From Podospora anserina (Eukaryota): a stretch of 64,000 nucleotides of DNA. Both the position numbers and the translations under genes were made by a program. The stretch is taken from the NCBI GenBank assembly GCA_017654855.1, contig CM030333.1, positions 186,001 to 250,000 of the forward strand, given 5' to 3'. Below, piece after piece: positions 39,666 through 64,000 of this stretch (position 1 is the stretch's first letter; each line of letters opens with the position of its first letter). The notes below the pieces were generated by a model. It had not been told where the DNA came from. It made no database searches and saw nothing but the letters and a program-made list of their open reading frames with translations.

Positions 39666-40104
39666 TGTGACGAACCCCTGTACAGAACCTCTGAAAGGGA
39701 TACGGGTTGAAGGCTACTTCTGACAATTGGTTCGGTGCAGCTAAACAGTGCACAACAAGATGTCTCAATGTAAACACAAGATGCCGTGAATACAACTGTG
39801 AAATTGCATACTGCGGAACTGTCTATCTACACCAGCCAGTTCCTCCGTATATATAGACTTCTTTTCCCAGCCGTGCTTCCTCTGATCAGTGTCCTGAGCA
39901 TACTGATCACTTACGCTCAGCCTGATCAGTGTCCTGATCATACTGATCATCCCGGTCTGGTCTGCTCAGTCTGATCAGTGCTCTGATCGCACTGATCATC
40001 GTCCCTCATTGTGATTGGCTCTCCTGGGTGTTTTCCCGATTGGTCCCTGCTCCCGCGGTTCCACAACCAATCGTTATTCTCGTCCATATACCAGGGTTGT
40101 GACA
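39666..40104 (-). mobile_element. Solo LTR, crapaud-like Gypsy family, U3 type A, almost free of RIP
   Basis: TGTGAC..GTGACA termini, 5-bp TSD ATATG on both sides; its first ~190 bp are shared with the other LTRs of this family. Confidence 0.92.
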
Positions 40105-42536
40105 ATATGCCGTAATTTAATAAGATTCTAAGTGGAAAAAAAGAAAGTAGAGCAAACACCAGATATATAAAATATATTTTAATAATGGTTTTACTTTCTT
40201 ACTTGTGGAAACTTAGCTAGCTAGGTCCCTATAGGTAAAAAGCTTGTTTATAGGGGTTAAAGTAAAGAAGTCTGGAGTTATGAGATATTTACGTTACTTC
40301 CGACGATTAATTAACCGTATTTCCTCCCGCTAACCTCGTACTATCCCGATATTATACTTTTCCCTTCCGCCCTAATCGAAAATATAACTTTGATATTTAA
40401 TCTAATTATTATATTTATTTAAAAGTGTTAAAATATATGTATATTATAAATATTTATTTAACAATTATTAACAACTGGTTTTTTAAAGGTTAGAGTATTA
40501 TAATTTTTTGGATTATATAAGTCGTTAAGCTTTTATAGTAAAATAAAGTTAAATATATTTTCTAATATAATATAATGCTTAATATACCAGTTTTTTTTTA
40601 AAAAGTATTTAATAGGGAATGATATTGTATTAATACTATATTTCTTAGTACCAATCTTACAATTTATTATATCATATGAATGTTTTTATATATTGTTTGT
40701 TAAGGGCTTACAACGCTGTTGTTTGGGATTATTTTAGTCTCTTGTTACTTGCGTTTTATTTTGCCGTTATGATAATAGGTAAAGCTACTATTCCCGTCTT
40801 TTACATTATGTTCCGGCGCTTTTTTTTATTAAATTTCTTTTTTTCATTATAGCTTTACTTACGATAATGAAACTAAAGAAAAAAAGATAATCTTTAAAAC
40901 GAAAGTTCATAAAGCTCTAGATAAAGAAAATAATTTATTTAATATATTTTAATAAAATATTATAAAATCCATTAAAAGTTAGTTTTATATATAAGCCTAA
41001 AGGCCCTATAACGGTAAATATTAATAGTTTTTATAGTGTAGTAGAATTAATTTATATAAAACCTATAGCTTACTGTCACGAATATAATATGGACACCCGA
41101 AAAGAACAACCAATAGGAAAGAGGAGGCACGGCAGCTAATTAAGAGAAAGGAGGATAGACCAATAAGAGGTGGATTATCCGGGACATAAAGGAATCATGA
41201 GCGATTTCTAGGAATCACTTATGAGCCTTAAGAGTTAGTTAAAATCCGGGAAGAAACAGAATAATCCAGGCTTAGCATTAGATCTATAATACGGAGGAAC
41301 TAGATAGCTTATAAATAGTTCCGCAGTATGTAATTCACAATTATATTTACGGTATTTTGTATTTATATTAAAATATTTTATTATATACTATTTAGCTATA
41401 CTAAACTAATTATTAAAAGTAGCCTTTAACCTATATCCCTTTCAGAGGTTCTATATAAGGGTTCGCCACACGTTATATACTTACTTTAACTCTATTACAG
41501 ATAAGTTAAAAGTATTAAATTAACGCTATAGCCGGAAATGTTAATACTTAGATAGGGATATTTACTTAACTTACTATCGATTAGCTTTTCGCTTATATTT
41601 AAAAGTTTAAAAATAAATTACGCTTTTCCCACGAGACCCTTATATAAAAAAACGCTATACTCTACTAAAAGATCGGGACTTTACGTAAGGAGGGAGAGCG
41701 TATTAAGCTTAAGGCACCCGACCGCTACGGAGGTATAAAAGGAAAGCTAGGAGGATTTCTAATCTAGCTTAAAGCTTACTTTCGGTATTACCCTTTTTAT
41801 TTTCCGGATAAGGAGTTTAAAGTTATATATATTACGTCTAGGCTTAAAGATATAATATTTATATAGTTTAAGCCGATTTTAAGAGATTACTTTGATAATA
41901 TATATAATAAAAGGAAGGATATTAGTTAAACGTATTTTAAATCGTATAAAGGCTTTAAAAAGAAAATTAAGGAGGTATTTAAAGAATATAACGAGGCTAA
42001 ACGTGCTTAAGAATAATTAATTAACCTTAAGCAGACTCGATCTACTACCGACTATACTATAGTATTTAAGATAAACGTACTCCGTAACGTAATTAACGAT
42101 AAAGGGTTAATATAATTATTTTACAACGGACTTAAAGAAAAAGTTAAGAATAAACTATATTAAATAGAGCGACCGGAAATTATTAACGAGTATATTATAA
42201 TAATAATCTATATTAATAATTAATAATATTAATATCGTAAAGAGCGTAAGGGTATACGCGTGTAAAGACCGTATTACCCGAATAATAATAATAAAAAACG
42301 GCCTTACGGGACTTACGTTTTAAGGACTACTTAAGTAAAACTTATAAAAGTCGATACTATTTAATAATAAAAGTCGTAAGGCCGGGATAAAGGTAAAAAT
42401 AATTATAAATATTTTAATTACAGTAAAATAAAATACTTTAAAAAGGACTATAGGGTATTTAAGTAATTCGGATAGAAAAAGGAGATTGCAATAATTATTA
42501 TATTGAAGGGACCGAGGGTTATAGAGATTATAGCTA

Positions 42537-44370
42537 ACGTGCGTAATAAGCGAGCGCAATAGACAAGCGAGCGTAATACTTTTTAATATCCTACTATAAC
42601 TATCCTTAATTATATAACCATAATACTAGCAAACTACAATAACTGAATTAGAAATAGATGAATCAGATAATTCTGTAGCCTCCTTGCAGGTACGTGTATT
42701 ATAGCCAGGCTTGCCGCACACACCATAGCACCGAATCTTCGTACGAGACCCCCCTACACTACTATTATTCTGTCGTATTTCCTGGGCTACCTGCTTACCT
42801 ATAGCTTTTTAATCTAGTAGATCCTGTGCCTTTTATATAGTAAGTAACCCTTTAAGCCGCATACGTGTTTTTTTTGGCTCTCCGTCTCTTACTAAGCTCC
42901 TTATTGGCCTTACGTAGCGAAGAGACCTTTATACGGAGAAGAGTTACCTCGTATATTATACTTATTACTTCCTTAGTAAATTAGTCTATAGCGGCTAGTA
43001 TTAAGGTTAGAGAGTTACCCTAATAGTTAGAAATTCGAGTTTTAATAAACATTAACTGTAAAGTAACCTCCCGAGGGTTATATAGCGTTTAAAAGACCTA
43101 AGGTAGTACTGTAGTTAGGCTCGAGGCTAGAGGTATTGGAGTCCGAATATATATATTTAGTTTAGATATTACTCTCTTTAGGTCGTACAGTATAAAGCCG
43201 GCTCTAATAAAACTACTTTAAATATTTTTTTTATAATCGAAATAAAAAATATTTCTCTAAATATATAAAGAAACTCTAATTTAGTAATATATATAATATT
43301 TATTCGTATTAATTATTTAATTTAGCGGTTATACGCTTTTTTTAATAGCGTAAAATAATTAATATTTAATAATTAAAATATATAAAAGAAGTACGGAGGT
43401 ATATATAGTATAATAATATTATACTTCCGGCAATTTTTTGAAGTAGTAACTTTCGTAGCCGTTAAAGATTAATAACCGATATTTATCCTTCGTACGAAAT
43501 ACCGTATAGAAATCGAAGTACTAAATTTAATCTATATTTTTTTTATTAATAGTCTAACTATTATCGATTATTATAATACATTAAGTAGCCGGAAGGCTAT
43601 ACTCTTAATATTAATTAATAAAATAATATTACCCGGCTAAAATAATAAATAATAAAATAGTTTAACCTAAAGTATTTACGCTCTAAATAACCGTAACCCA
43701 CTTACGATTATTAAACTAAACCTATTTAACTTTATTACGGCTATTAAAAATTATAATTATTATACCCGCGAAAAATAATACCTATTATAAACCTAATCTC
43801 GTCGAAGTTATAGATATTATTATTTACGATACCGTACTAAACCTTAATATTCTATATAAAGGTAAACCACTCTCTAATAACCTTTAAATCCTCGCATTTA
43901 GCCCTCTAATAATTATATTTACGCGTAAAACGCGTCCGAAGTTCTAACTAGCGTTTAACGAAGTTATAAGCCTATCGTTTACTAATAGGGGGCGCGTTGC
44001 GTTCGCGTAGTAATCGGTTAGCTATATCTTCTACGTAATAAAGCCGAGGATGAAATGTACGCGTATAGAGCTTAATTATATATTAAATAATCGTTTATTC
44101 CTCTAAATCGGTAAGCTTATGTAAATTAGCTAAAATATCGTATCGTGTAAGCCGGCCGGCGCGTCGGTGAAAAAGAGTTGTATGGTTAACGTTATAGATC
44201 TTAGCTGCAGCTCGCAAGCTTAGCTTTTTATTATTTTAAGGAGCCTGGAGAGCCAGATTTAATCGTGCTTCATTTGACGGCGATATTATATTAGATTGTG
44301 GAGGAAATAAGTGTTGAAGGCGAAGGTAGTACGACGCGTGGAAAGTATTGCGCTCGCTTATCACGCACGT
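42537..44370 (-). mobile_element. Second pogo/Fot1-type DNA transposon nested in gag
   Basis: TIRs ACGTGCGT(A/G)ATAAGCGAGCGCAATA, TA TSD; RIP-mutated transposase collinear with the 17149-19011 element; empty site visible in the sister retroelement at about 52455. Confidence 0.92.
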
Positions 44371-44761
44371 TATCGGGTATTAGTAAAACGAAGCGGCAAA
44401 CTTTAAGGAAAATTCTAATTAATATACTAAGTAAAAAATAAAGTTCCAGGAACTATAGGAAGTAATAGAAAGGCGAAAGGCGGAGTACGAAGAAAGGGAT
44501 CTTTAGATTTAAGTATTATAAGATTAATTAATATAAATTACTATAAAGGTTACTAAAAACGATAATCCTATATAATAGGAAAGACTAATTAAGTAAACGA
44601 TACTAGAAAAGTAGTATGGTAAGTATAGGATTACCGCTGTATAAGGATAGCTTAAGAAATCTATATATAAAAGCTAAAAAAAAATACTGGAAAGATAAGA
44701 AGGTCGTTAGTATTAGGATCGTAAAGTTATTAAGAAATATACTTACTTTTATACAGTATAT

Positions 44762-45203
44762 TGTCACAGTTAACCTAACAGCAGGCCGCGCCACATATAG
44801 GGCGCAGGACGTCCCTAGCTAATCATTAAAGAAGTTAGGAGATAGCTAATCAGGGCTGGACGAAAGTGCTATGGCGCTAAGACACACGAGCACTCTGCAG
44901 GATGCAAGATGCTACGAGTGATCAGAGGCATAGCACGACGAGCACTTTGCAGGATGCAATATGCTATGGGTAATCGGGGCCGTAGTAGGGCGAGCACCTT
45001 AGGGCCCCAGGATCTATATATACGGAGGAACTGGCTAGTGTAGATAAATAGTTCCGCAGTATGCAATTCACAATTGTATTTACAGTATCTTGTGTTTATA
45101 TTAAGATATTTTATTGTGCACTATTTAGCTGCACCGAACTAATTATTAGAAGTTACCTTTAACCCGTATCCCTTTCAGAGGTTCTGTATAGGAGTTCGTT
45201 ATA
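44762..45203 (+). mobile_element. Solo LTR, U3 type C, nested
   Basis: 442 bp, same sequence as the LTRs of the 46499-53958 element; TSD TATAT. Confidence 0.9.
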
Positions 45204-45286
45204 TATATACCCTATAAGGAAGATACGGTATAACTTTATTTTAAGTATTTAGAGTATCGGAAAGTACTTTAGTTTTAGTATATTAT

Positions 45287-46498: not shown

Positions 46499-49400
46499 TG
46501 TAACGAACCCCTATATAGAACCTTTAAAAGGGATACAGGTTAAAAGTAACTTCTAATAATTAGTTCGGTGCAGTTAGATAGTATATAATAAGATGTTTTA
46601 ATATAAATATAAAATACTGTAAATATAACTATGCATTATATACTACGGAACTATCTATCTATACTAGCTAGTTCCTCCGTATATATAGATCCTGGGGCTT
46701 TAAAGTGCTCGCCCTACTACGGCCCCGATTACCTATAGCACATTATATTCTGTAAAGTGCTCGTCGTGCTATACCTTTAATTACTCGTAGTATCTTACAT
46801 CCTGCAGAGTGCTCGTATATCTTAGCGCTATAGTACTTTCGTCCAGCCTTAATTAGCTATCTCCTAACTTCTCTAATGATTAGTTAGGGACGTCCTACGC
46901 CTTATATATAGCGCGGCTTACTATTAGGTTAATTGTAATATAATGCCCCTCCCCCTAGGTCGACGCTCCGGTAATTATATTCCTAAAATAATTACCGATT
47001 CCTATTTCTTTTATATTTCTATAGTAAGTTCCTCTCCTTTTTTATCCTAAACGTTATATCTAATTATATAAAGAATTAATTTATACGAGTATCGACTGTC
47101 GCCGTAATTAAATATGTGTCTTTAAGAAATTTAGTTTCGTTATACTTAAATATATTTATTATAAAAAGAATAACCTTAAGTATATAACTTCTCTTCGATA
47201 CGAACGGTACTTTCTGTATATTAAATCGAGTCGTTCCTATTACAACGTTTATAGTATAAATTATAAATCTTTTCTTTAAGCCTTTTTTTTCTTTTTTTTA
47301 ACTATTTATAGTCCGTCCTTTAATTAGGGAGAAGAAACGCCTGGATACCGAAAGACAGGCTACCTTAAGTAAACTCCTTCGTCTCGAAGCGTAATCGCAT
47401 ACCCTTAAGGCTCGAGCTCTAGTTGCTTTCCGTCGCGAGTCCCGGCTCCTTAATAAAGAGGAGAGAGAGTCTTGTGCGCGGCTTGCTACCCCGCATAGCC
47501 CGCTAGCGGCGAACGCCTCCGCTATTCCTTCTAACTTTTCCTTCCTAAATCCTTCTTTAGGCTTCGACTAGCTTTCCGACTTTCCTTTAGACTTTAGTAC
47601 GGCCGGTCCTTCCTTCCTAATTCCGTAAGGTGCCGCTAATAGCGTACCTTTTACTTCCTAAAGTGATTGAGACGCACGGCACTACTTGTATCTAGGTCTC
47701 CTCACACCTTCTAACCTCGTAGTGTAGTATGTAATACGTCGGCTATTACGTCGAAGGCGCAGGTTCGATTCCTACTAAGGTTCTTCTATATCTAAGTTCA
47801 TGGATATTCCTCCGTGGCTTAGGTATAGTTCTTTTTATTATTTGGGTTTTAGTCGGTCTGGGTATTGCCGGTGGAATTCTTTTTACTTGCTTAGGTTATT
47901 GAGATTTGCCTTCAGTTCTTACGAATTATTTATAATTAAATACCTTAACTAATTAATTAAATATTCTAATTAACCTCCGTTAAACTATAAATTTAGTATT
48001 TCCTTTATATCGTACTTTTCTTTTTTGTCCTCCGCTACGGCCTGCGTATTAGCCTTACTTACCGGTAGTACGGGTTCCAGAAATGAGATGCGAAAAGTAT
48101 ATAACTTTAGACGTATTATATTAGGTAGCTCCAATTCGAATACCGTCTCCGATATCTTTTTTTAACCTTAAATAAGCCTACTCTCCTATAGTTTAGCTTC
48201 TTATAAAATTTTTTGGTACGTAAATTATTTATAAAAAGGAATATTATATTCCCCCCTTTAAGGTAAGGTCCCTCGAGCTTTTTAATATTATAATATTTCC
48301 GTATCCTTTCCCTTATAAACTCCAGTTTTTACTTAAGTTTACTATAAAGTATATATAGTTTATTTACTTTAACCCTGGCCCTAAGTACTTTAACGTTAGG
48401 TCCCTACTATAAATTTATTTTATATTTAAAGTTTACGAAAAACGGTATAGCTTTAGTCGTTTTAGTTAGTAATATATTATATATTAATTATATTATAAGT
48501 AATAGTTTAACTTAATTATTTTATTCGAAATTAATATAATTCCGTAAATACTATTCTACGATTTAATTAAGCTATTCCGTTTGACTATTTATTTAAGGGT
48601 AGTAAACCGATAATACTTTACTTATTACCCCGAGCCTCGTTATTAACGCTCTTTAAAACTTCGATACGAATTTAGTATCGCGGTTTATAATAAACTTTTT
48701 TAACTATATATATATTAATATAATATACTATAGTACTATATCCGTTAATTACTTTACCGACTAAATTTTTTTATAAAGTAAAAAATATATTTATTTAATA
48801 AACTTATTAATTATTATTAATATATTATTATACTTAACGCCGGTTACCGTATTTTTTAATTTTAGTAATTTAATAATAAAGTTTATTATGATTAAACTCT
48901 ATAGTCGTTTTATTATTAATAGTAATTCCAGAAATCTATATAGTTTATACTTTATAACCTTCGTTTTCTCGTATATATAATATAATTAAATAGCTTCCTT
49001 AACGTTATTTTTAATCCTTAATTAATTAAAGTACTATTTAATCTTTTCTATAGTCTTTATAATACCTATATATCCTCCGAACTTTAATCTATAAATTTCT
49101 ATTATTAATATCGCCCTATTACCTAGCTTTATATATATTTAATTTTTATACTATAGTTTTCTTTAACTATTTTTTTAAATACTTTATAGTTTCAATTTTT
49201 CCTATTAATATTATTTCGTAATATCATTACCTAACCTCCTTTAATATTTACTAAAGATAGCCTATTTACGATACACTATAAAATACTTTTTTTATAGCTA
49301 AAATAAATATTTAAAAGCGCTATTTAGCGTCTCTTTAAATAATAGTGGTAACTCTTTATGTATATCCTTATAGTAGTCAGCTCGCCGGCTAAATACGTTT

Positions 49401-52400
49401 ACCCTAGCGTTTTCCGATCCTTTTTTATAATTAATTTAGAAATTAAATTCCGAAAGAAACTTTAATTATCGCGTCTACCGTATATTAAAGACCTTTATAG
49501 TAATAAAGTATCGTAGGTTCTTATAATCTGTATAGACCTATATTTCGTAGTTAATACTATTAAAGTATAGCTTTTATTCCTTAAACGCTTCGATAATAGT
49601 AAGTAGCTTCTTATTATAAATTAAGTAATTTTAACGTACCCCTTTTAGTTTTTTTAAAAAGAAAATTATTAAGTATAGCTTTCCGTCGTCGTTTCGCTAT
49701 CCTAATTATTCCCCGACTATATAGTCTAATATATCCGCCTCGACCTTAAATAGTCGATTAGGATTTAGTAATTTTAGTACCGGATTCTTTAAAATAACTT
49801 TTTTTAGTTCCTAAAAGGCTTACTCCTCTTCCTTCCCCTACCGGAACTCTACGTCTTTCTTAAATAAATAATTAAATAATTACGCGATTCTTATATATTT
49901 ATAAATAAATATTTAATAAAAATTTATAAACCTTAAAAATTCCCTAATATATATTTATAACTACGGCGTAAGCTAGTCCTTAATTACTATAATTTTCCTA
50001 AATTCTATACGAACCTCTCTTAACGATATTAAATATTCTAAATATACTATTTTTTATACGTAAAACTCGCTCTTTTCTTTATTAATTAAAAATCCGGTTT
50101 TATATAGTACGTCGAATATCTTTCGTACGTATCGTTTATACTTCTCTAAAGTACGTAAATAAATAAAAGTGTCATTAAGATAGTATATTATTATTTTATC
50201 GAGGTACCTCCGGATTATATAGTTAACGAGAGATTAAAATATTATAAGCATATTAGTTAGCCCGAATAGTATTATAAAATATTTAAAATAATTATAGGGT
50301 ATACGAAACGCTATTTTTTATTTATTTTTTTCCTTAATCCGTATATAGGCGTATCCAATAAGTATATTTAAGCGTATAAAGTATTATGCTTTAGTTAATT
50401 AACTTTATAATTTAAATATTAATGGTAACGGGTAACTATTTTTTACCGTCTCGTTATTTAATTAATAATAATCTATATATACTTATAAGCTATTATCCTT
50501 CTTCGGTATAAAGAATACGGGGTATTCTATTAGCGATATAAACTCCTTAATATATCCTTTCTTTAAATTTTTATTTAAATATTTCCGTAATTCCTTACTT
50601 TATTTACCGTTAGTATAATATACCTTAAATAGCCGTAATTTAGTTCCTTCCTTTAACTTAATTTCGTAATCCTACGGTCCTCGCTCTAAAAGTTCCTCTA
50701 AATATTTAACTATAAAAGCTAAATATCCTCGATATTCTACTAGTACCGCCTTTTTCTTACCTTTCTCTATATTATTATAGTAAATATATTTATTAACCTC
50801 CGATATCTCTACTAACGTTATTAACCTTACTTCTTTAATCTTACCGTTTATATTAATAAAGTACATTATTATTTTTTAGGCTCCTTACGGTAGTACCGTA
50901 GAGGGTGTTTATTCTATACTTTACTTTATATATACGCTTAATCTCCTATCGTTAATTAAATATTTTTAAGGTTCTTTTAATCGTAAATAATTACTATCCT
51001 TCTAATGGATATTGAGGTTATAATTTTTATACTATAGTTATTTTAAGATTATATCCTTCGAGGGTCCTATATCTATAATATTAAATATAATTAAAATTAT
51101 TTTCCCTTTAACTATAATATTTAAAAATAATATTTTTTATAGACTTTTTGCGTCGGAAATAGTCCTTATATAACGATCTATTCCTTTTTTTTCTTTTATA
51201 GTATTTTAATTTAATATATAAATTATAGTAAAATTAAATTTATTTCCGTATCTCCGTTTACTAATATTACCGCCTAAATATATTTTTAATATATTATAAC
51301 TTAAAGGTATTTATCTCTCTTACTTCCTCCCTATACGGTAGCAACTTCGTTAATAAATACCGGGTCGTTATCCTATACTTTCGCTTTACGCTAATACTTC
51401 CGAAAATACCGTTTGTAATCCGTTAAAGGTTACCGGCCCCCGCGAAGGGCCGTAAGTTATTTCTTAAGCGATTATATTGTTTAAAAGTATTTTTTTACTC
51501 CGGGTTATTTAATAATATAAAGTCCTTTAACTATACCCGCCTAACTTCCTTCCCTCTTTTATTTTTCTTAGTATTTTATTAAATATACTTTTAATAGTAT
51601 TTCCGTTACTTAACTAATACCCTAGGCTCAGTTATTTAATAGTATCGCTTAACTTTTTATCGTAAATATAATACGTAATTTAAGCTTAAGTACCACTATA
51701 GTACTACCCTTCCTCCCGAGATCTCGCTATCTAACGTATACCTCTCGTTTATATACCCGAAGTAGTACTTTACCTCTTTTAGCGTAAACTAAATTACTTA
51801 AAATTTATTCCTTAATTAAATTACTTTCCGTTCCTTTTATAGTAAATAATTATTTAATTCTTTATTAGTTTTTTCCTATTTTACTATTATTTTTCTAATT
51901 AACTATAATTTACTTTCCTTATTTATTTTATATACTAACTAGTAGCCGTATAGTAACTTATTTTAATAGTACTCTATATATCTGTATATAATATACTAGA
52001 ACTAAAGTACCTTCCGATATTCCGGATATTTAAAATAAAATTATATTATATTTCCTTTATAAAGTATATACTTTATAAGTATAGATATATTTCTTAATAA
52101 CTTTATAATCTTAATACTAAAGATTTTTTTATTTTTCTAATATTTTTCTTAGCTTTTATATTTAAATTGCTTAAACTATACTTATATAACGGCGATCTTA
52201 TATCTACCGTATTACTTCCCTAATATTATACACCAAGTAGGTCCTTCCTATTATATAGGGTAGTCGTCCTTAATAACTTCTATAGTAACTTATATTAGTT
52301 AATTCTATAATACTAGTATTTAAAGATCTCTTTCCTCGTACTCCGCCTTTAACCTTTCTATTACTTCCTACAGCTCCTAGAACTCTATTTTTTACGTAGC

Positions 52401-53958
52401 GTACTAATTAGAATCTTCCTCAAAGTTTATTACTTCGATTTATTAATACCCGATAATTACGACCTTTATAACTCTCGGTCCCTTTAATATAATAATTATT
52501 ATAACCTCCTTCTTCTATCCGAGTTACTTAGGTGCCCTATAGTCCTTTTTAAAGTATTCGGTTTTACCGTAATTAAAATACTTACGGTTATCTTTAACTT
52601 TATCCCGGCCTTATAACCTTTACTATTAAATAGCGTCGACTTCTATAGGCCCTATATAGGTAGTCCCTAAAATATAAATCCCGTAAAGCCGTCTCTTTTT
52701 CTTATCGTTAGAGCGGTACGGTCCTTATACATATATACCTTTACGCTCTTTATAATACTAATACTATCGATTGTTAATACAGATTACTATTACGATATAC
52801 TCGTTAATAATCTCCGGTCGCTCCATTTAATATAGTTTATCCTTAATTTCTTTCTTAAACCCGTTATAAAATAATTATATTAACTTTTTATCGTTAATCG
52901 CGTTACAAAGTATATCCGTCCTAAATGCTATAGCGTAGTCGGTAGTAAATCGAGTCTACTTAAGGTTGGCCAGTCGCTCCTAGGCACGCCTACCTTCGTC
53001 GTACTCTCTAAATATTTCCTTAATTTTCTTCTTAAAGCCTTTATATAATTTAAAATACATTTAAATAACCTCCTCCCTTTCGTTATATATATTATCGAAA
53101 TAATCTCCTAAAATTAATTCGAATTATATAAATACTATATTTTTAAGCCTAGACGTAGTATATACGACCTTAGATTCTTTATCCGGGAAACGAAAAGGGT
53201 AGTACCGAAAGTAACCTTTAAGTTAGATTAAGAATCTTCCTAGCTTTCCTTTTATATTTTCGTACCGGTCGGATATTTTAAGCTTAGTACGCTCTCCCTT
53301 CTTACGTAAAGTACTAATCTCCTAGTAGAGTATAGCGTTCTCCTACGTAAGTGTATCGTAGGAAAGGCGTAACTTATCTTTAAGCTTTTAAATACGAGCG
53401 AGAAGCTAATCGATAGTAGGTTAGGTCGAGACCCCCTAAGTACTAACGTTTCCGGTTATACTATTAATTTAATACCTTTAACTTATTTATAATAGAGTTA
53501 AAGTAAGTATATAACATATAACGAACCCCTATATAGAACCTCTAAAAGGAATATAGGTTAAAAATAATTTTTAATAATTAGTTCGGTATAACTAAACAGT
53601 GTATAATAAAATATTTTAATATAAATATAAAATACCGTAAATATAACTGTGGATTATATACTATAGAACTATCTATCTACACTAGCCAGTTCCTCCGTAT
53701 ATATAAATCCTGGGGCCTTAAGGTGCTCGCCCTGCTACGGCCCCGATTACCCATAGCACATTGCATCCTGCAAAGTGCTCGTCGTGCTATGCCTCTGACC
53801 ACTCGTAGCATCTTGCATCCTGCAGAGTGCTCGTGTGTCTTAGCGCCATAGCACTTTCGTCCAGCCCTGATTAGCTGTCTCCTGACTTCTCTAATGATTG
53901 GCTAGGGACGTCCTGCGCCCCACATGTGGCGCGGCCTGCTGTTGGGTTAACTGTGACA
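46499..53958 (-). mobile_element. Full-length Ty3/Gypsy element (inner, 7460 bp), RIP-inactivated
   Basis: LTRs 46499-46940 and 53517-53958 (442 bp, type C), TSD CTAAC, PPT complement CCCCTCCCCCT about 46946-46956; gag-pol is the reverse complement of the outer element's. Confidence 0.95.
47050..47661 (+). pseudogene. RIP-mutated antisense ORF of the inner retroelement: Zn2Cys6-like motif, coiled coil, acidic tail
   Basis: TAY codons at 47151, 47160, 47181, 47208, 47217 and 47238/47241 (x2-x6-x8-x2-x6/7); then EKKRLDTERQATLSKLLRLE..FSFLNPSLGFD*LSDFPLDF. Start position uncertain. Confidence 0.7.
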
Positions 53959-56900
53959 CTAACGGACTACGAACGGTATTTTCGGAAGTATCGGTATAAA
54001 GCAAAAGTATAGAATAACGACCCGGTACTCGTTAGCGAGGTCGTTACCGTATAGGGAGGAAGTAAAAAAAAATTCCTTTTAGGTTATAACGTATTAAAAA
54101 GATATTTAGCCGGTAATATTAGTAAATAAAGGTATAAAAATAAACTTAATTTCGTTATAGTTCGTACATTAAACTAAAATACTATAAAAGAAAAAGAAGG
54201 AATAGATCGTTATATAAGGACTATTTTCGATATAAAAAGTTTATAGAGAAACATTACCTTTAAATATTATAGTCAAAGGAAAAATAACTTTAATTATATT
54301 CGATATTATAAATATAGGACCCTCGAAAGATATAATCCTAAAGTAATTATAGTATAAAAACTATAACCCAGATATCGATTTGAGTGATGGTAGCTACCTA
54401 CGACTAAAAGAACCTTAAAAGTATTTAGTTAACGATAAGAGATTAGGCGCACGTATAAAGTAAAGTGTAAGATAAGTACCTTCTATAGTACTACCGTAAA
54501 AAGTTTAAAAAGTAATAATGTAATTTATTAATATAAGCGGTAAGATCGAAAAAATAAGGTTAACGACGTTAGTAAAAATATCGGAGATTAATAAATATAT
54601 TTGTTATAATAATATAAAAAAAGGTAAGAAAAAAGCGGTACCGGTAGAGTATCGAAGATACCTAGCCTTTACGGCTAAGTATTTAAAAGGACTTTTAGAG
54701 CGAGGACCGTGGGACTATAAAATTAAATTAAAAGAAGGAACTAAACTACGGCTACTTAAGGTTTACTATATTAACGATAAGTAAAGTAAGGAACTACGGA
54801 AGTACTTAAACGAAAATCTAAAGAGAGGATATATTAAGGAGTTTATATCGCTAATAGGATACTCTATATTCTTCTTACCGAAGAAAGACGGTAGCTTACG
54901 ACTATATATAGACTACCGCTAACTAAATAACGAAACGGTGAAAAATAATTATCCGCTACCGTTAATATCTAAGTTACGGAATTAATTAGTTAAAGCGCGA
55001 TACTTTATACGCTTAGATATGCCTGTCGGGTACGCCTATATACGGATTAAGGAAAGAAAGAAATAAAAATAGCGTTTCGTATACCCTATAATTATTTCGA
55101 ATATTTTATAATACTATTTGGGCTAACTAATACGCCCGTAACGTTCTAATCTCTCGTTAATTATACGATCCGGAAGTACCTTAATAAAATAGTAATATAT
55201 TATCTCGATAATATTTTGATTTACTCTCGCACTCTAGAGGAGTCTAAGCGATACGTACGAGAGATACTCGACGCGCTATACGGAACTAGACTCTTAATTA
55301 ATAAAGAGAAGAGCGAGTTTTATATATAATAAATAGTATATTTAAGATATTTAATATCGTTAAGTAAAGTTCGTATAGAACTTAAAAAAATTACGGTAAT
55401 TAAGGACTGGCTTACGTTATAATTATAAATATATATTAAAGAATTTTTAAGGTTTACAAATTTCTATTAGATATTTATTTATAAGTATATAAGAATCGCG
55501 CGATTATTTAATTATTGAATTAAGAAAAATATAGAGTTCCGGTAGGGGTAGGAGGAAGAGTAGGCCTTTTAGGAGCTAAAGGAAGCTATTTTAAAGGACC
55601 CGGTATTTAAATTATTAAACCCTAATTAACTATTCGAGGTCTAGGCAGATATATTAAACTATACGATTAGTAGATAATTAAGATAGTAAAACGACGACGG
55701 AAAACTATACTTAATAGCCTTATTTTCCCAAAAAACTAAAAGGGGTACGTTAAAACTATTTAATTTATAATAAAAAGCTATTCCCTATTATCGAAGTATT
55801 CGAAAAGTAAAGGCTATACTTTAATAATACTAATTATAAAGTATAGGTCTATACGGATTATAAAAACCTATAATACTTTATTACTACGAAGGTCCTTAAC
55901 GTACGGTAAATATAATAATTAAAGTTTCTTTCGGAATTTAATTTCTAAATTAACTATAAAAAGGGTTCGGAAAACGCTAGGGCAGATATACTTAGCCGGC
56001 GAGCCGACTACTATAAAGATATACCTAAGAAGTTACTACTATTATTTAAGGAAACGTTAAACGGTATTCTTAAGTATTTACTTTAGCCGTAAATAAAGTA
56101 TTACGTAATATATTATAAGTAAGTTACTTTTAATAAATATTAAAAGAAATTAGGTAATAATATTATAGAGTAATATTAGTAAGAAAAGTTAGAGCTATAG
56201 GGTATTTAAAAAAATAATTAGAAAAGACTATAGTATAAGAATCGAGCGTACGTAAAGCTAAGCGATAGGATAGTACTCATAATAGAGATTTACGGATCGA
56301 AGCTCGGAAAATATATAAATATCGTAAAGACTATAGAAAAAATTAAGTAATACTTTAACTAGCCGAGGATTAAGGACGATATTAAGGAAGCTATTTAATT
56401 ATACTATATTAACGGTAATCGATAAGCTTATTAAGTAAGTATATTTCTTACTTTATAAAGAAACCTAATCGGTAAAATAATTAACGGATATAGTATTACA
56501 GTATATTATAGTAATATATATATAACCGAAAAAATTTATTATAAACCGTAATACTAAATTCGTATCGAAGTTTTAAAGAACGTTAATAACGAGGCTCGGG
56601 ATAATAAGTAAGGCGTCTTCGGCCTACTACCCTTAGATAAATGGTTAAACGGAACGGCTTAATTAGATCGTAAAATAGTATTTACGGAATTATATTAATT
56701 TCGAGTAGGACGACTGGGTTAAACTATTATTTACGGTATAATTAATATATACTATATTATTAATAAAAATAATTAAAGTTATACCGTTTTTCGCGAACTT
56801 TAAATATAAAGTAAACTTACGGTAGGGACCTAGCGTTAAAGTACCTAGGGCTAGAATTAAAGTAAATAAACTATATATATTTTATAGTAAACTTAAGTAA

Positions 56901-57429
56901 AAGCTAAAGTTTATAAGGGAAAGGATACGGAAATACTATAATACTAAAAGGCTCGAAGGACCTAGTTTTAAGGAAGGAAATATAATATTCCTTTCTATAC
57001 GTAATTTATGTATTAAAAGACTTAATAAAAAGCTAGACTATAAGAGACTAAGCCTATTTAAGGTTAAAAAGAGGATCTTAAAGACGGTATTCGAATTAGA
57101 ACTACCTAATATAATAGGTTTAAAGTTATATACTTTCTATATCTCGCTCTTAAAACCGGTACTACGGGCGGCTAGCCTAAATATATAAGTAAAAGCTAAA
57201 AACGAGGAAGAGAAGTATAATATAAAAACTTTTTAGACTTTCGTATTAATAACGGATAACTAAAGTATTTAGTTAATTAATTAAACTACCTAGTTATAAA
57301 TAATTCGTAAAAGCCTATTACGAACCTTAATTATATTAAAAAGTTAAAGGAGTTTTATCGGAGGAACCCTAGACGATTAAAGGCAAGGAATACCGCGGAA
57401 AACCGGCTAACGGGGCTAAAGGGAAACCG

Positions 57430-58030
57430 GGAAGGACGTAAGGATCTAGGTCGCCTATAAAACTAGTACCCGCGTTAGCGGAGTCCTAAGTTAATTAATT
57501 CTATAGGATAGAAGACTAGTCGAAGGAGGGGTCGAAGGTAGGGGAGGCAGCCTTATTAGCGGCTTTTTAGCGCTTTAGTTTTTTTAATTTCTTTACGGTA
57601 TTAAGACCCCGGAATATAGCCTACGATATTTTTTTAAACTATATTTTTTTTTATTTTCGTAAGTACCGGACCTTTTCATTCATAGCTTTAACTTAACTTT
57701 AATCTATTCTCAAAAACGACGGGTATTCTTAATAATAGCCTTAATTTACGCTTTCCCTGGCTCCAGCTCCGCCTCTATAATATTATATTAAGAAATAATA
57801 TAGAGTAATTAACGAGGGGTAATTCCGAAAATATTATAGTATAGGAGACCGCGACGAACGTACTTTAAGTAACGTAAAGATTTGTTAGGCGATACGATAT
57901 AAAAGAGGTTGCGGGTAGCGTAAGTAGAATAAAGAGTGGGCATTTTAAAAGGATAATATAGGATTCTCGTCGTAAGGTCGAGACGGGTTAACGTCGGCGA
58001 GCGTTTAGGTTTACTTACGCGGTTAAATAT
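57430..58030 (-). pseudogene. RIP-mutated antisense ORF of the outer retroelement: Zn2Cys6-like motif and coiled coil
   Basis: From ATA (RIP of ATG) at 58030, TAY codons at 57931, 57922, 57901, 57871, 57862 and 57841/57838 (x2-x6-x9-x2-x6/7); later EAELE..EKVRYLRK*K..RGLNTVKEI. End position approximate. Confidence 0.7.
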
Positions 58031-61000
58031 CGTAGCGGTAGAGAAAAGATAGAGAGAGGAAGACTTACGGTAAATAAGGTTAGTTATTAGTAAAGGTTTT
58101 AAATAGAGTCGTCGGAACGTCGATTTAGGAGGGGGGGTATCGTATTATAAATATAATATAAATACCCGAAAAGAATAATTAATAGGAAAAAAGAAGTACG
58201 GTAGTTAATTAAAAGAAAGGAAAAGAGATTAATAAAAGGTAAATTATCCGGAATATATAGGAATTATAAGCGATTCCTAAGAATTACTTATAAGCTTTAA
58301 AAGTCGGTTATGATCCGGGGAGAAACAGAATGATCTAGGCTTAGTATTAGGTCTATCTATACGGAGGAACTAAATAATTTATAGATAGTTCCGTAATATG
58401 CAATTCACAATTGTATTCACGGCATCTTGTATTTACATTGAGACATCTTGTTGTGCACTGTTTAGCTGCACCGAACTAATTGTCAGAAGTAGCTTTCAAC
58501 CCGTATCCCTTTCAGAGGTTCTGTATAGGGGTTCGCCACACTTACTATTAAATATAAGCTTTTAATGTTTTTATATACTTTATAATGTAATACAATAAAT
58601 ATTAAAAATTAGTTAATCACATTGTATAACACTACCTACCTATGCCCATCGGGACAAGACCGTCTGTTTGAGCTGGCGAGCCAGCAACCAAGTTCAATGC
58701 CTAGCTAAGCCCTCAAATAGACAGGCTTCAAAAAGCCACCAAGCCTCGAGACGGAGTGGCCCCGTCTCGACAGCCAGATAGGCAAAGACGGACCGCTGCT
58801 GCCATTATAGACAAAGGAAAGGAAAGGACCGCAATATCGCAACGGCCTTGTAAAAAATTAAAAGTACCGGGTATGACGGCTTCTATAGTTCTAAGCCTGT
58901 ATTCTTTATTTATAGTGAGGTAGCTCTTAGATAACGCACTCTACTTTACTAGGTACGCTACCTTTCTATAAAGTATTTAGTTATAGCTGATAAATATATA
59001 TTTTATAGATTTTTAACCTACCTCTTTATACCATTAGTTAATGTAATAATATCTTTATACTGGCCTCAAGTTCCATACTACAGCTAAAATATTTCTATTT
59101 TAGAGCTCTCCTTATACTTTATTTTTCATTAAATAATTTATGATAATTTAATTATAACACGCTTAAAGTTACTAACTTCATCATTAATAAATAATAAGCC
59201 AGTATTATATTAAGTTTACTATCAATTTCGCAGGTAAAAGCAGAAACTTAACCCTAGTAATATTAATTTAAAAAAAGTGAATTATTTATTATATTGATCA
59301 ATTTACTTTTTACTAAATTTACTAGTCATTTACTAATCTCTAATGATTAATCTTTTTCATTCACTAGATCTTCAAAATCTACTAAATCTACTAAATCTAC
59401 TAAAAATACCAATTTCTAATGTTTTTCTAGTTACTGAATTAGCTAATATTTCTTTCTCTAAACCCTTTTAACCTTTGATTAATTAATTACTTACTAATTA
59501 TTGACTAGTTTACATTATTAATTACTACTATAGTAACTACCTTTAATTTTCGTAATCTCACTATTGTTGTATAAACCTTTTCAACCTTGAAATAATATTT
59601 TGATTAATATTATATCTATAGCAAAACCCTCTATTCTAATACTATAAATAGTTCATTTTATGGCTAATAACGTTAATTGATTTTCTATAAGTTCAATTTA
59701 TCTATACTAATGTAATTACTGGAATAATTGATTTAAATCGTTTAAATACTACATTAGTGACTATATTATTTAACCTAGCTATTAATATTTTTGTATTTAA
59801 TTATTAACCTCTAACAGCTTTTTTATAAGCGTATGACGTTACTTACATAAGCTTTATTAGCTTAAACCAAACTATATGTTAATCAAGAAAATTTGCGATT
59901 TAAAACGGCCTATATTCAAAATATTTAGTGCAATTTTATAAACAAACCTAAACTTTGACATTACCTTGAATTATCTTTAATAGAAGCTTTTTATTACTAA
60001 GCTTAATGTTTTCAACTCTGATCAAAATCTACAATAATCTGAATAAATTAAACTATACTATTAATTACTAATATATTATAAAATACAGTATTTTTTATTA
60101 ACTTTACCTAACTAAAATATTATTTTAAGAAAGCTAAAACTGAATAACAGCCTAATACCTTTCAAATCTTTTACTTGTATATAGATTTAACTAACCTGAT
60201 TAAACAAAAGTTAAATATTTTATTATATATTTAAATAAATATAACAAATTTACTAAACTCTATCTACCTTTCTACCTATGAGTTGAATGACAAAAATTAT
60301 AACTTCTATAATAACTATAATAATTATTTTATAATGAAAATAAAATAAAAGATAAAAAATCTAATAACAGCTATTTATAAATCTAACCAAAATTGATTTA
60401 ATTAATGAAATTGATATTAATAAAAGAAATAATTTTAAGAGTTTTCTAATAATATATTATATATTTCTAATAGTTTAATTTATATAAACTTTATTTATAG
60501 TCTATTATAATAAATGAATCTATAACCCTATAGTTATTTATAAAAGTAAATAAATAAAACTATAAACATGATTGTTAAGGGTAAAGTGTATATTTCTTAA
60601 ACATTATAGTAGTTTCAATGGCCCTAAATCTCTATTTATTATCTTTAGTTACGGAAGTTATAGATAGTACACCCTATTTTACCGAATACCCTACTTTTCA
60701 ACAACGTATTTAGTTATGGCTTACAAGCCTATATCTTATAAATCCTATAACCTATTTTTTATACTATTAGTTAACATAATAATACCCCTATATTAGTACT
60801 AGGTTCTTTACTATAATACCGGGGTATAGTATAAAAAGCATAATAATTTTATTTATTTTTAAAATAATAAAGTAAATATTTATAATAAAAGACCAATATA
60901 AACCCGAACAATAGTATTATAAACCCTTGAGATTCTATATCGAAAAAACTACTTTCCTATTATATATAAGGTTAATCCAATTAATATAATAAATCATTAA

Positions 61001-61710: not shown

Positions 61711-62148
61711 TGTGACGAACCCCTATCCAGAACCTCTGAAAGCGATACTAGTCGAAGGCACTTCTAAATAATCCTAGTTCGGTACAGCTAAGCAGTGTAC
61801 AAGAATGGCTTATCGCAATCACAATAGTCTTAATACTAATAACTGTGACTTAAATTGCATACTGCAGAACTGTCTATCTATACCAGCCAGTTCTTCCGTA
61901 TAGACCAGTGGTTTACCTAGATTATTATGCCAAGCGTGATCCTAGATCACTTCTCCTAGCGTTAGATTACTATGGATCACGGTGCTAAGAGTGATCCTGG
62001 ATCACTCTCGTCACCTTATGATCACTTGGATCACCACGCTCCCGGCGCTCCCAGGCGCTCCACTTCCTATTTAGTTCCCGTAGCAATTAGTTAGGTACAT
62101 CCCCTGCCCCACATACTATTTAACTTACCTATTGGCTTAACGGTAATA
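61711..62148 (-). mobile_element. Solo LTR, crapaud-like, U3 type D
   Basis: TGTGACGAACCCCT start, diverged shared half, distinct GTGATCC-N-RGATCAC repeats, end GTAATA, TSD AGTTT. Confidence 0.85.
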
Positions 62149-62805: not shown

Positions 62806-62992
62806 CCGTGCTCGTCGCGCTATACCTTCGATTACCTCGAGCATCTTGTATCCTGCAGAGTGCTCGTGTGTCTTAGCGCCGTAGCACTTCTGGCCTATTC
62901 CGACTTGCTACTTCCTAGCTCTCTTAATAAATAGCTGGGGGCGTCTCGCGCCCTACATACTATGCAACCTATCGTTAGGTTAACTTATGATA
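62806..62992 (-). mobile_element. Truncated LTR fragment, diverged type C U3
   Basis: GTGCTCGTCGCGCTA..CCTGCAGAGTGCTCGTGTGTCTTAGCGCC matches 53775-53958; the shared half is missing. Confidence 0.8.
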
Positions 62993-64000
62993 ATATGTAA
63001 ATATTCTATAACCTGATATTTTATTAATTTAACCCCTATAAAAAAGCCCCCTATTTATGGAGATTTAATTAGCTAAGTTATTAAAAATAAATAGAATTAT
63101 TATAGAACTAGAATAATTAAAAGTAACGGGGAAAAATGAAGTTAATGAATTAGAGGTAATAAAATTATTGAAAAGAATTAATATATGAATATTTTGATTA
63201 TTCTATACTTTCTTACTTTAACTATTATAAAAAAGCCCTCTACTCGTAAGGACCTAGCTAGCGTGATCCCTATAAGTAAAGCAATATTATTATGTAGTTG
63301 AAAATTTTTAAATAAATAAGATAATTAAAATAAAGATAAAATCCTAGATTTAAATATACTAAAACGGAAAAGTATAATTGTAAAATAAGATAAAGTTAAT
63401 GGGAAAAAATAGAATTAATTATTTTTAAATAATATTAGTAATGTTTATAGAAATTAATGTATAAATATTTTATAACCCCTAAATCTCTATACTTTAACCT
63501 CCATATTAAAGCTATTTCTTTATAAAAACCCAAGCAATTAAGTTTATATAAATAAAAGTTAGTTATAAATATATAATTTATTTGTTTAGCTTCTAAGAAT
63601 TTTTAATTTACATAGATAATTCCTTTAATATTAGAACCTTTATAGGTTTAATAGTAAGAAGTTTAGTTTATTAATATACAAATAAATCTATCTTCATAAC
63701 TAACTACTTTATTCCTAATATTAAGACTAGCTTTATAAAGCAATTGATTAATCGGTAAAGTCCTCTTCTCATATTCTTTCAACTTCTTTCTCAATAACTT
63801 TAATATAATAAAAAAAGCTTTAGACTTCCTTTTTAGTAATTTTATATATTAAATATTTTTAATAAATAAAATATGGTATATTAATTTTAAAGAGTTTTTA
63901 ATAAAAGATTTATTTTATAAAGTAATGTATAAGTAATTTATAAAAAAGACCTTAGTATTATAATATAATAAAGACCTTTATTTAGAGTCTATTATAGAGG

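What the first reader, a model, noticed from the sequence alone, without database searches (positions are those of the whole stretch)
57430..58030. Hidden antisense Zn2Cys6-like gene in a fungal Gypsy retrotransposon (outer copy), readable only after reversing RIP
Seen: between the end of pol and the PPT, on the strand opposite gag-pol, a frame starts about 110 bp from the 3' LTR and reads Y-ST-Y-ATRNLF-Y-IVSPNKSLR-Y-LK-Y-VRRGLL-Y-Y-NI. Known: RIP converts TpG to TpA, so Cys codons TGY become Tyr TAY. The restored spacing C-x2-C-x6-C-x9-C-x2-C-x6/7-C matches the GAL4-type binuclear zinc cluster. A coiled-coil-like stretch (EAELE..EKVR.LRKQK..RGL.TV.E) and a tail with acidic and aromatic residues follow. 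Internal control: the gag knuckle at 42410-42451 shows the same decay (YFNYSKIKYFKKDY from C-x2-C-x4-H-x4-C). Inference: the element encodes its own small transcription factor, transcribed antisense from the 3' LTR, analogous to retroviral antisense regulators such as HTLV-1 HBZ. I do not know whether this has been described for this family.
Basis: partly seen in the sequence, partly recalled or inferred. Interest (0 to 1): 0.85.

Follow-up and report, generated by a model that had tools for sequence, protein, structure and literature searches.

The report
Hidden antisense zinc-cluster gene in retrotransposon
A mutation-scrambled fungal jumping gene carries on its reverse strand the wreck of a small gene for a Gal4-like zinc-cluster protein, which intact relatives in many fungi still encode and which may let the element regulate itself.

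Summary
On the minus strand, 58030 to 57327, lies a RIP-destroyed gene. An unmutated relative in the public protein collection (P0003, 205 aa) has Cys at all six proposed sites, with spacing C-x2-C-x6-C-x9-C-x2-C-x7-C. Of 201 aligned window codons, 112 are the same as P0003, 74 differ only by C>T or G>A, and 15 differ otherwise.

The Tyr pattern alone was not above chance: 40% of shuffles gave at least one hit. The proof comes from homologues.

The gene belongs to a large unannotated family. It has 313 cluster representatives at E<=1e-3, and the only invariant columns are the six Cys. In 12 of 15 related metagenome loci it sits antisense between pol and the 3' LTR, overlapping the chromodomain end of pol. 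It is under purifying selection in its own frame.

Predicted models retrieve only Zn2Cys6 DNA-binding domains, with low scores. The Pfam Zn_clus threshold is not reached and the canonical DNA-contact lysines are missing.

A regulatory, Gal4-like dimeric function is inferred, not shown. Antisense transcription from the LTR was not tested. An antisense gene (brtn) is already known in Botrytis Boty elements; whether it is homologous is unknown.

The parts
57327..58030 (-). RIP-inactivated antisense gene (aORF) of the outer Gypsy copy. About 234 codons; start ATG>ATA at 58030-58028; 14 in-frame stops; one 1-nt frameshift near 57690-57716; stop at 57329-57327.
   Evidence: tblastn of P0003 onto the window. 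Codon-by-codon comparison: 112 same, 74 RIP-type and 15 other among 201 codons; 13 of 14 stops sit at Q, W or R codons of P0003. Start position from the alignment with P0002.
57836..57931 (-). Six-Cys (now Tyr) binuclear-cluster-like module. The codons begin at 57931, 57922, 57901, 57871, 57862 and 57838.
   Evidence: All six are TAT/TAC where P0003 has Cys. These six columns are the only invariant ones in a 124-sequence alignment.
57546..57817 (-). Long helix / coiled-coil region, with the family's most conserved motif (RLRKQKK.W.EK..RA..RG....EELE).
   Evidence: AF2 helices at 43-111 and 117-133 of P0003 with pLDDT above 90. Profile hit on 57692-57504, i-Evalue 2.9e-7.
57327..57545 (-). Low-confidence acidic/aromatic C-terminal tail. 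Its last 134 nt (57327-57460) overlap the 3' end of pol on the other strand.
   Evidence: tblastn alignment. pLDDT 52-60 from residue 150. The pol frame 57311-57460 ends with a stop at 57458-57460.
56640..57460 (+). C-terminal part of pol of the outer copy (integrase C-terminus, SH3-like domain and chromodomain), convergent with the aORF.
   Evidence: tblastn with the pol C-terminus of L001. That query carries Pfam SH3_Tf2-1 and Chromo.
58128..58138 (+). Polypurine tract of the outer copy, next to the 3' LTR.
   Evidence: Read. Aligned with the conserved GCCCCTCCTC block of the related loci.
58143..58548 (+). 3' LTR of the outer copy. Its partner 5' LTR is at about 41081-41478.
   Evidence: Direct repeats and self-BLAST. 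The inner edge is placed by alignment with the loci.
47151..47577 (+). Remnant of the same gene in the nested inner copy, which lies on the minus strand at 46501-53954. The Tyr motif is at 47151-47243 and the coiled-coil remnant at 47332-47577.
   Evidence: Pattern hit. tblastn outer against inner, E 6.7e-5 in a very small database. Profile hit with i-Evalue 0.0097.
42410..42451 (+). gag CCHC knuckle of the outer copy with Cys and His turned into Tyr (internal control).
   Evidence: Translation. The unmutated relative L001 has Pfam zf-CCHC in gag.

Best explanation
SHOWN: 57327-58030 (minus strand) is a copy, destroyed by repeat-induced point mutation, of a real protein-coding gene. That gene is a regular component of a clade of ascomycete chromodomain-bearing Ty3/Gypsy elements. 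It lies antisense between pol and the 3' LTR. Its ATG is 113-131 nt inside the LTR edge, and its 3' end overlaps the end of pol.

The protein has about 205-235 residues and five parts:
- a basic N-terminal arm of about 40 residues;
- a six-Cys module with Zn2Cys6 spacing and predicted fold;
- a helix of about 70 residues;
- a short return helix;
- a disordered acidic/aromatic tail.

INFERRED (my odds about 45%): the protein is a nuclear, dimeric, Gal4-like regulator made by the element from an antisense transcript. It would bind nucleic acid, most simply the element's own LTR, to tune the element's transcription. The window copy itself is dead.
For: Identity of the gene:
- P0003 has Cys at all six sites and an open frame of 205 aa.
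- The window differs from P0003 mostly by C>T/G>A: 74 RIP-type against 15 other changes in 201 codons.

Size and shape of the family:
- 46 relatives at E<=0.01.
- 313 representatives at E<=1e-3 and 80 at E<=1e-10.
- 137 of the 187 proteins fetched by then have the full motif.
- The only invariant columns are the six Cys.

The gene belongs to the element:
- It is convergent with a pol C-terminus in 12 of 15 loci. Pfam finds SH3_Tf2-1, Chromo, gag, RT and integrase in L001.
- aORF identity tracks pol identity: Spearman 0.78 over 10 loci, which are related and so not independent.

Selection:
- Outside the pol overlap, dN/dS is 0.10-0.31 in 3 pairs, with dS saturated.
- The aORF frame has the lowest pN/pS of six frames in all 3 pairs: 0.31-0.57 against 0.47-2.14.

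Fold:
- Full-length model: pLDDT 83, and above 90 over residues 1-130.
- Every row that Foldseek listed for both models contains a Zn2Cys6 domain.

Other:
- UniRef labels two members 'Zn(2)-C6 fungal-type domain-containing protein'.
- The N-terminal arm is basic, mean +4.5 over about 41 residues.
Against: Sequence tests for Zn2Cys6 fail:
- Pfam Zn_clus is not reached: P0003 scores 10.8 bits against a cut-off of 21, and the match aligns the wrong half. Only 4 of 42 members match at E<=1, best 0.1.
- A profile of the family finds no Zn2Cys6 chain among PDB sequences.

Structural scores are low:
- Foldseek best E is 0.33-0.35; nothing reaches 1e-3.

The DNA-contact residues differ. The basic R-x-R-K-x-K stretch between Cys2 and Cys3, which contacts DNA in Gal4-type proteins (recalled, not from a call), is replaced by E-x-R-G-L-x. 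Position 4 is mostly Gly. 20 of 145 members have no K/R there.

No CGG-N-CCG site is conserved in the LTRs of 6 loci.

Nothing here shows zinc binding, dimerisation, nuclear location, DNA binding, an antisense transcript or its promoter.
Confidence: 0.72

Rival explanations
1. The gene is real and element-encoded, but the protein is not a DNA-binding transcription factor. The zinc module and coiled coil would serve protein or RNA binding. Examples are acting on Gag or integrase, targeting integration, packaging RNA, or blunting host silencing.
For: The canonical basic DNA-contact residues are missing, and the module is only mildly basic, mean +1.6. Pfam Zn_clus is not reached. No conserved CGG-N-CCG site was found in the LTRs. 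The most conserved part of the protein is not the zinc module but the RLRKQKK...RG....EELE helix.
Against: The whole architecture copies that of Gal4-type factors: basic arm, zinc cluster, linker, long helix, acidic/aromatic tail. All solved structures that the models retrieve are DNA-binding domains.
Confidence: 0.3
2. The Tyr spacing is a chance product of TA-rich RIPed DNA, and there is no gene.
For: The pattern alone is not significant: 40% of 300 shuffles give at least one hit.
Against: P0003 and hundreds of relatives have Cys at these sites in open frames. The window copy aligns to P0003 over 201 codons.
Confidence: 0.01
3. The frame is a host gene or gene fragment captured by this one copy, or a host gene into which the element inserted. 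It would not be a component of the element.
For: The two nested copies in the window do not align at the DNA level in this spacer.
Against: The same gene sits at the same place and in the same orientation in 12 of 15 independent loci. A remnant of it is also present in the inner copy. Its divergence tracks that of pol. A single ancient capture at the root of the clade is not excluded.
Confidence: 0.03
4. The conservation reflects a cis-acting RNA or DNA signal of the sense strand (the 3' untranslated region before the PPT), not a protein.
For: A conserved hairpin and other conserved blocks lie next to the PPT.
Against: Those blocks lie upstream of the ATG, not in the frame. Inside the frame, substitutions are mostly synonymous for this frame only. 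The invariant columns are Cys codons.
Confidence: 0.02

Closest known systems
Fungal Zn(II)2Cys6 binuclear-cluster transcription factors (Gal4, Ppr1, Put3, Hap1, Leu3, Pho7; Pfam PF00172)
   Same: Six Cys with the family's spacing. The predicted fold retrieves only these domains. The cluster is followed by a linker and a long helix, as in the solved Gal4, Hap1 and Put3 fragments, and by an acidic/aromatic tail. UniRef gives this label to two members.
   Different: Below the Pfam cut-off. The R-x-R-K-x-K contact stretch is missing. The protein is very small, about 215 aa, and I saw no middle-homology region (a feature I recall, not from a call). It is encoded by a retrotransposon, not by a host locus. 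DNA binding is untested.
brtn, the antisense gene of Boty-like Gypsy retrotransposons of Botrytis cinerea and Sclerotinia (Zhao et al. 2011, Virology 417:248)
   Same: An extra gene in a fungal chromodomain Gypsy element, antisense, between pol and the 3' LTR (passages in PMC7264820, PMC8365987 and PMC4227169). A Monilinia transcript matches both truncated Pol and BRTN, which suggests the two lie next to each other, as here (PMC5987419).
   Different: Homology was not tested, because the paper and the brtn sequence are not held. None of the 15 named source species of my hits is a Botrytis or Sclerotinia. The passages I saw mention no zinc cluster.
Antisense additional ORFs between pol and the 3' LTR of plant LTR retrotransposons (Grande, RIRE2, Retand, PvRetro13)
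   Same: Same position and orientation, conservation within families, and unknown but presumed regulatory role (PMC7264820, passages).
   Different: Different kingdom and different Gypsy lineages. No sequence relation is known. The window's family has a recognisable domain type.
HTLV-1 HBZ, an antisense-encoded bZIP regulator (recalled, not from a call)
   Same: A small dimerising nuclear regulator encoded on the minus strand near the 3' LTR of a retroelement.
   Different: bZIP fold, not a zinc cluster. It is a vertebrate retrovirus. This is an analogy of layout only, and nothing was tested here.

Membership tests
Zn(II)2Cys6 binuclear cluster (PF00172) | Six Cys spaced C-x2-C-x6-C-x5-12-C-x2-C-x6-8-C | tested here: met
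   P0003 has C-x2-C-x6-C-x9-C-x2-C-x7-C. 137 of 187 fetched proteins match a slightly wider regular expression; the commonest spacings are x2, x6/7, x8/9, x2, x6/7. The six Cys are the only invariant columns among 124 sequences. In the window all six are TAY.
Zn(II)2Cys6 binuclear cluster (PF00172) | Score at or above Pfam's gathering cut-off for Zn_clus | tested here: not met
   P0003 scores 10.8 bits, E 0.56, against a cut-off of 21, and the match is to the wrong half of the model. 4 of 42 members match at E<=1, best 0.1.
Zn(II)2Cys6 binuclear cluster (PF00172) | Fold: two short helices, each starting at a C-x2-C, packed around the cluster | tested here: met
Zn(II)2Cys6 binuclear cluster (PF00172) | Basic residues between Cys2 and Cys3 that contact the CGG half-site (C-x2-C-R-x-R-K-x-K-C; recalled) | tested here: not met
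   The commonest residues are E, R/S, R, G, L, S. Position 4 is Gly in 31 of 89 x6 members and 41 of 48 x7 members. The number of K/R there is 0 in 20, 1 in 56, 2 in 51 and 3 or more in 18 of 145 members.
Zn(II)2Cys6 binuclear cluster (PF00172) | Dimerising coiled coil after a short linker | tested here: inconclusive
Zn(II)2Cys6 binuclear cluster (PF00172) | Binds two zinc ions and sequence-specific DNA | not testable with these tools
   This needs purified protein.
Antisense additional ORF between pol and 3' LTR (aORF-3R class of PMC7264820; includes Boty brtn) | Lies between pol and the 3' LTR on the strand opposite gag-pol | tested here: met
   In the window the aORF is at 58030-57327, the pol stop at 57458-57460 and the LTR from about 58143. 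12 of 15 loci show the same layout.
Antisense additional ORF between pol and 3' LTR (aORF-3R class of PMC7264820; includes Boty brtn) | Present in most copies of the family and conserved as a protein | tested here: met
   12 of 15 loci carry it. 4 of 15 loci hold an intact frame; the others are RIPed or cut. dN/dS is 0.10-0.31. The aORF frame has the lowest pN/pS of six frames.
Antisense additional ORF between pol and 3' LTR (aORF-3R class of PMC7264820; includes Boty brtn) | Sequence homology to brtn | not tested

The most novel reading that the evidence does not exclude
A whole clade of ascomycete chromoviruses carries its own miniature Gal4-type dimeric transcription factor. It would be made from an antisense transcript that starts in or next to the 3' LTR, and would be used to switch the element's LTR promoter, and perhaps host genes beside solo LTRs. 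This would be a fungal counterpart of retroviral antisense regulators, and a possible route of exchange between transposons and the large host Zn2Cys6 repertoire.
Probability: 0.35. Interest if true: 0.8.

Novelty: new variant of a known kind. Interest (0 to 1): 0.62.

Why it matters
Accessory genes of LTR retrotransposons are rare and almost all lack a known function. This one has a recognisable domain type, so its function can be tested directly. The tests are zinc content, DNA or RNA binding, LTR reporter assays and knock-out in an active copy.

The family is large but invisible to standard annotation. It has no Pfam family, genome records call its members 'hypothetical protein', and RIPed copies are unreadable. 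Its copies are probably annotated as host genes in some genomes and missed in others.

The case also shows that RIP can hide a Cys-rich gene completely, and that an unmutated relative can recover it. If the protein does regulate LTR transcription, it would be the first transposon-encoded zinc-cluster regulator that I know of in fungi. My searches found none. They cover open-access papers and bioRxiv only, and the one directly relevant paper (Zhao 2011) could not be read.

Tried and rejected
- Whole genome of the window: not held, so family copies from the same genome could not be collected.
- Tyr pattern as evidence in itself: rejected, because it is not above chance.
- DNA alignment of the outer and inner pol-LTR spacers: no convincing alignment between the LTR and the end of pol. 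The relation between the copies shows only at the protein and profile level.
- Pfam on the window's own frame (P0001) and on the RIPed relative P0002: no family.
- Profile of the family against PDB sequences: 10 weak matches, none a Zn2Cys6 chain.
- ESM Atlas: only unnamed ascomycete clusters, scores 0.90-0.91.
- CGG-N(0-20)-CCG or CCG-N-CGG sites in the LTR pieces of 6 loci: none at a conserved place. A seventh locus had no recognisable edge.
- tRNA-like fragment in the inner copy: ARAGORN finds no tRNA in 39000-64000.
- RNA evidence: no RNA holder is listed. Two runs that the tool only guesses to be RNA each gave one contig, laid on 57347-57407 with 12 of 61 letters different. Contigs show neither strand nor expression, and the sense genomic RNA would cover this place anyway.
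- Dimer prediction with zinc: the job was never accepted because the queue was full, so nothing is known from it.
- brtn: the paper is not held. Three cluster look-ups covering 30 proteins named no Botrytis or Sclerotinia, which does not exclude homology.
- I built no de-RIPed consensus. A natural unmutated relative made it unnecessary.

Full report
SETTING. The last 24 kb of the window are AT-rich (GC 0.19-0.38 per kb) and bear the signature of repeat-induced point mutation (RIP). TpA/ApT is 1.5-1.6 and (CpA+TpG)/(ApC+GpT) is 0.15-0.39 in the elements, against 0.71 and 1.26 in the genic 39 kb.

Self-comparison shows two copies of one Ty3/Gypsy family.
- The outer copy lies on the plus strand, with LTRs at about 41081-41478 and 58143-58548.
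- It is split at 46498/53955 by an inner copy on the minus strand (46501-53954; LTRs 46501-46936 and 53519-53954).
- The two copies are about 80% identical over gag and pol.

The pol of the outer copy ends in an SH3-like domain and a chromodomain. The last pol frame is 57311-57460, with its stop at 57458-57460.

THE OBSERVATION. The minus strand reads exactly as reported.
- The frame lies in a stop-free run of 111 codons (57812-58144). This is the longest of the 25 frames of 40 aa or more listed for 53900-58600.
- The gag knuckle control is also as reported, in both copies.
- The Tyr spacing is not in itself above chance. It occurs twice in the six-frame translation of 40000-64000. In 300 dinucleotide shuffles the mean was 0.51 hits; 40% had at least one and 8.7% at least two.
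- Both hits lie at the equivalent place of the two copies (57931 minus, 47151 plus), and they align with each other. The two copies share ancestry, so this counts as one event.

THE DECISIVE RESULT. A search of the public protein collection with the window's 111-aa frame found one relative, P0002. It is a mutated copy that still has Tyr at the sites but Arg where the window has the first Tyr of 'YY'.

A second search, for longer proteins, used the alignment of the two. It found P0003, 205 aa. P0003 begins MPTPCSACATRNLSCIVSPTESSRCLECVRRGLSRCDV, so it has Cys at all six proposed sites, with spacing C-x2-C-x6-C-x9-C-x2-C-x7-C.

P0003 aligns to the window over 201 codons in two frames, which implies a 1-nt frameshift near 57690-57716. 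Codon by codon:
- 112 codons encode the same residue;
- 74 can be derived from a codon of the P0003 residue by C>T and G>A alone;
- 15 cannot;
- all 7 Cys of P0003 are TAT/TAC in the window;
- of the 14 in-frame stops, 8 stand at Gln, 3 at Trp, 2 at Arg and 1 at Pro.

The family's first Met corresponds to ATA at 58030-58028.

THE FAMILY.
- P0003 has 46 relatives at E<=0.01 in the word-indexed search.
- It has 313 cluster representatives at E<=1e-3 in the exhaustive search, 80 of them at E<=1e-10.
- The names that sources give are almost all 'hypothetical protein'. They come from 15 species: Fusarium (three species), Pyricularia, Gaeumannomyces, Cordyceps, Colletotrichum, Apiospora, Camillea, Parathielavia, Podospora, Triangularia, Canariomyces, Cryphonectria and Aureobasidium.
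- By my own knowledge, not checked in a call, all are Sordariomycetes except Aureobasidium, which is a Dothideomycete.
- UniRef labels two members 'Zn(2)-C6 fungal-type domain-containing protein'.
- 137 of the 187 proteins fetched have the complete motif. The 50 others are the window's own frame, N-terminally cut fragments, and mutated copies with Tyr at Cys sites.
- In an alignment of 124 full-length members, the six Cys are the only invariant columns.
- Asp follows the last Cys in 138 of 145 members.
- No Pfam family covers the protein, and the ESM Atlas gives only unnamed ascomycete clusters.

THE GENE BELONGS TO THE ELEMENT. A scan of metagenome contigs gave 15 loci.
- In 12 of them the gene is followed, on the other strand, by a pol C-terminus, and in most of these the two overlap. 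L006 and L008 show no pol in the roughly 500 nt that remain, and L015 is rearranged.
- In L001 the neighbours carry Pfam SH3_Tf2-1 and Chromo, and further on gag with a CCHC knuckle, RT, RNase H and integrase.
- 4 of 15 loci hold an intact frame (L001 and L002, which are identical, L004 and L006). The others are RIPed, with mixtures of Cys and Tyr at the six sites, or are cut.
- The ATG lies 118-131 nt inside the LTR edge in 6 loci, and 113 nt in the window.
- Identity of the gene to L001 tracks identity of pol: Spearman 0.78 over 10 loci, which are related and so not independent. The gene is the more divergent of the two.
- This divergence explains why the two window copies, 80% alike in pol, do not align in this spacer.

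SELECTION. For the part outside the pol overlap (155-158 codons):
- The three pairs of intact genes give dN/dS of 0.10, 0.31 and 0.18, with dS saturated.
- As a control, the gene's frame has the lowest pN/pS of all six frames in each pair: 0.31, 0.57 and 0.51, against 0.47-2.14.
- Only three sequences with DNA were available for this test.

WHAT THE PROTEIN LOOKS LIKE. With 124 sequences, AlphaFold2 gives pLDDT 83, above 90 for residues 1-130. The model has:
- two short helices at the two C-x2-C pairs (6-10 and 26-31);
- a helix of 69 residues (43-111);
- a return helix (117-133);
- a low-confidence tail.

A wide search with the whole model was swamped by coiled coils, so I folded the module alone: 46 residues of L001, pLDDT 80.
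- Foldseek again listed only Zn2Cys6 proteins, best E 0.35.
- The absolute scores are low, as they must be for about 35 residues. The argument rests on specificity.

WHERE IT DEPARTS FROM THE FAMILY.
- Pfam Zn_clus is not reached.
- A profile of the family finds no Zn2Cys6 chain among PDB sequences.
- The stretch between Cys2 and Cys3 carries the DNA-contacting Arg and Lys in Gal4-type proteins (recalled). Here it reads mostly E-x-R-G-L-x(-S).
- The module is only mildly basic (+1.6), whereas the N-terminal arm is basic (+4.5 over about 41 residues).
- The most conserved stretch of the protein is RLRKQKK.W.EK..RA..RG....EELE, in the long helix.
- I found no conserved CGG-N-CCG site in the LTRs.

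MECHANISM. What is shown: a conserved, element-borne antisense gene for a small Zn2Cys6-like protein with a long helix. What is inferred: the architecture is that of a minimal Gal4-type factor, with a basic arm, a cluster, a dimerising helix and an acidic/aromatic tail.
- The most economical reading is a dimeric nuclear regulator that acts on the element's own LTR. I give this about 45%.
- A role in protein or RNA binding (integration, packaging, counter-silencing) is the main rival, at about 30%.
- The promoter is unknown. It must lie in the 113-131 nt before the ATG or, in antisense orientation, in the LTR.
- No RNA evidence could be obtained.

WHAT IS KNOWN.
- Antisense extra ORFs between pol and the 3' LTR are known in plants. 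One is known in fungi: brtn of Boty-like elements of Botrytis and Sclerotinia. Its function is unknown.
- I saw this in passages of PMC7264820, PMC8365987, PMC4227169 and PMC5987419. The original paper is not held.
- Whether brtn is homologous to this family could not be tested.
- Seven full-text searches found no paper that describes a zinc-cluster protein encoded by a retrotransposon. Subscription journals are largely outside that library.

VERDICT. The gene is a new, or at least unrecognised, variant of a known kind of accessory gene. Its function remains to be shown.

Noticed in passing
window 58107-58125 (minus strand); L001 about 5790-5810; L003, L004, L005, L007, L008, L010 and L012 at the same place: A hairpin directly inside the polypurine tract is conserved with compensatory stem changes. 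The forms are CTTTCG-TCC-CGAAAG in most loci, TCGACG-TCC-CGACGA in L001/L002 and the window, and CCTTTG-TCCT-CAAAGG in L006. The TCC loop is kept. It could belong to the sense RNA (plus-strand priming) or to the leader of the antisense transcript.
   Followed up: partly
window 58031-58068 (minus strand); loci, the 60-70 nt before the aORF ATG: GTGAGT (GTAAGT in the window) is conserved, followed 45-55 nt later by GCTGAC right at the ATG. This looks like a fungal splice donor and branch point, so there may be a short intron in the leader or around the start. An acceptor AG is not consistently present.
   Followed up: no
window 57941-57943 (minus strand); family alignment A3: 105 of 114 full-length members have a Met 2-4 residues before the first Cys. 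The window keeps this ATG although the upstream start is mutated. It may be a second initiation site giving a form without the basic arm.
   Followed up: partly
window about 47720-47780 (plus strand), inner copy, pol-LTR spacer: A stretch resembles the 3' half of a tRNA (GGTTCGATTCC T-arm-like). ARAGORN calls no tRNA in 39000-64000.
   Followed up: partly
window 44754-45210, 42527-44369, 39659-39858, 61711-61902, 62808-62996: Further debris of the same family. There is a solo LTR inserted in the outer copy (44754-45210). A 1.8-kb stretch of the outer copy has no counterpart in the inner copy (42527-44369). LTR fragments lie on both sides of the nest.
   Followed up: no
LTR U3 of L001, L003, L004 and L005 (alignment A4, columns about 60-115): Two ATTGG boxes (CCAAT on the sense strand) are conserved near the inner edge of the LTR. 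Some loci have a TATA-like CCTATATGG about 20 nt inside the LTR edge on the antisense strand.
   Followed up: no
window 57347-57407; runs X23 and X24: In two further runs with the same species label, one contig each matches this stretch at 80% and continues on both sides in GC-rich sequence unlike the window. The differences are A>G and T>C. A less mutated relative of the element therefore exists under that species label.
   Followed up: partly
proteins P0048, P0058, P0090, P0118, P0148, P0165; loci L003, L007, L008, L010, L012, L013: Public collections hold many other RIPed copies of the gene, with Tyr at some or all of the six Cys sites. They form a natural series of the decay seen in the window.
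   Followed up: partly
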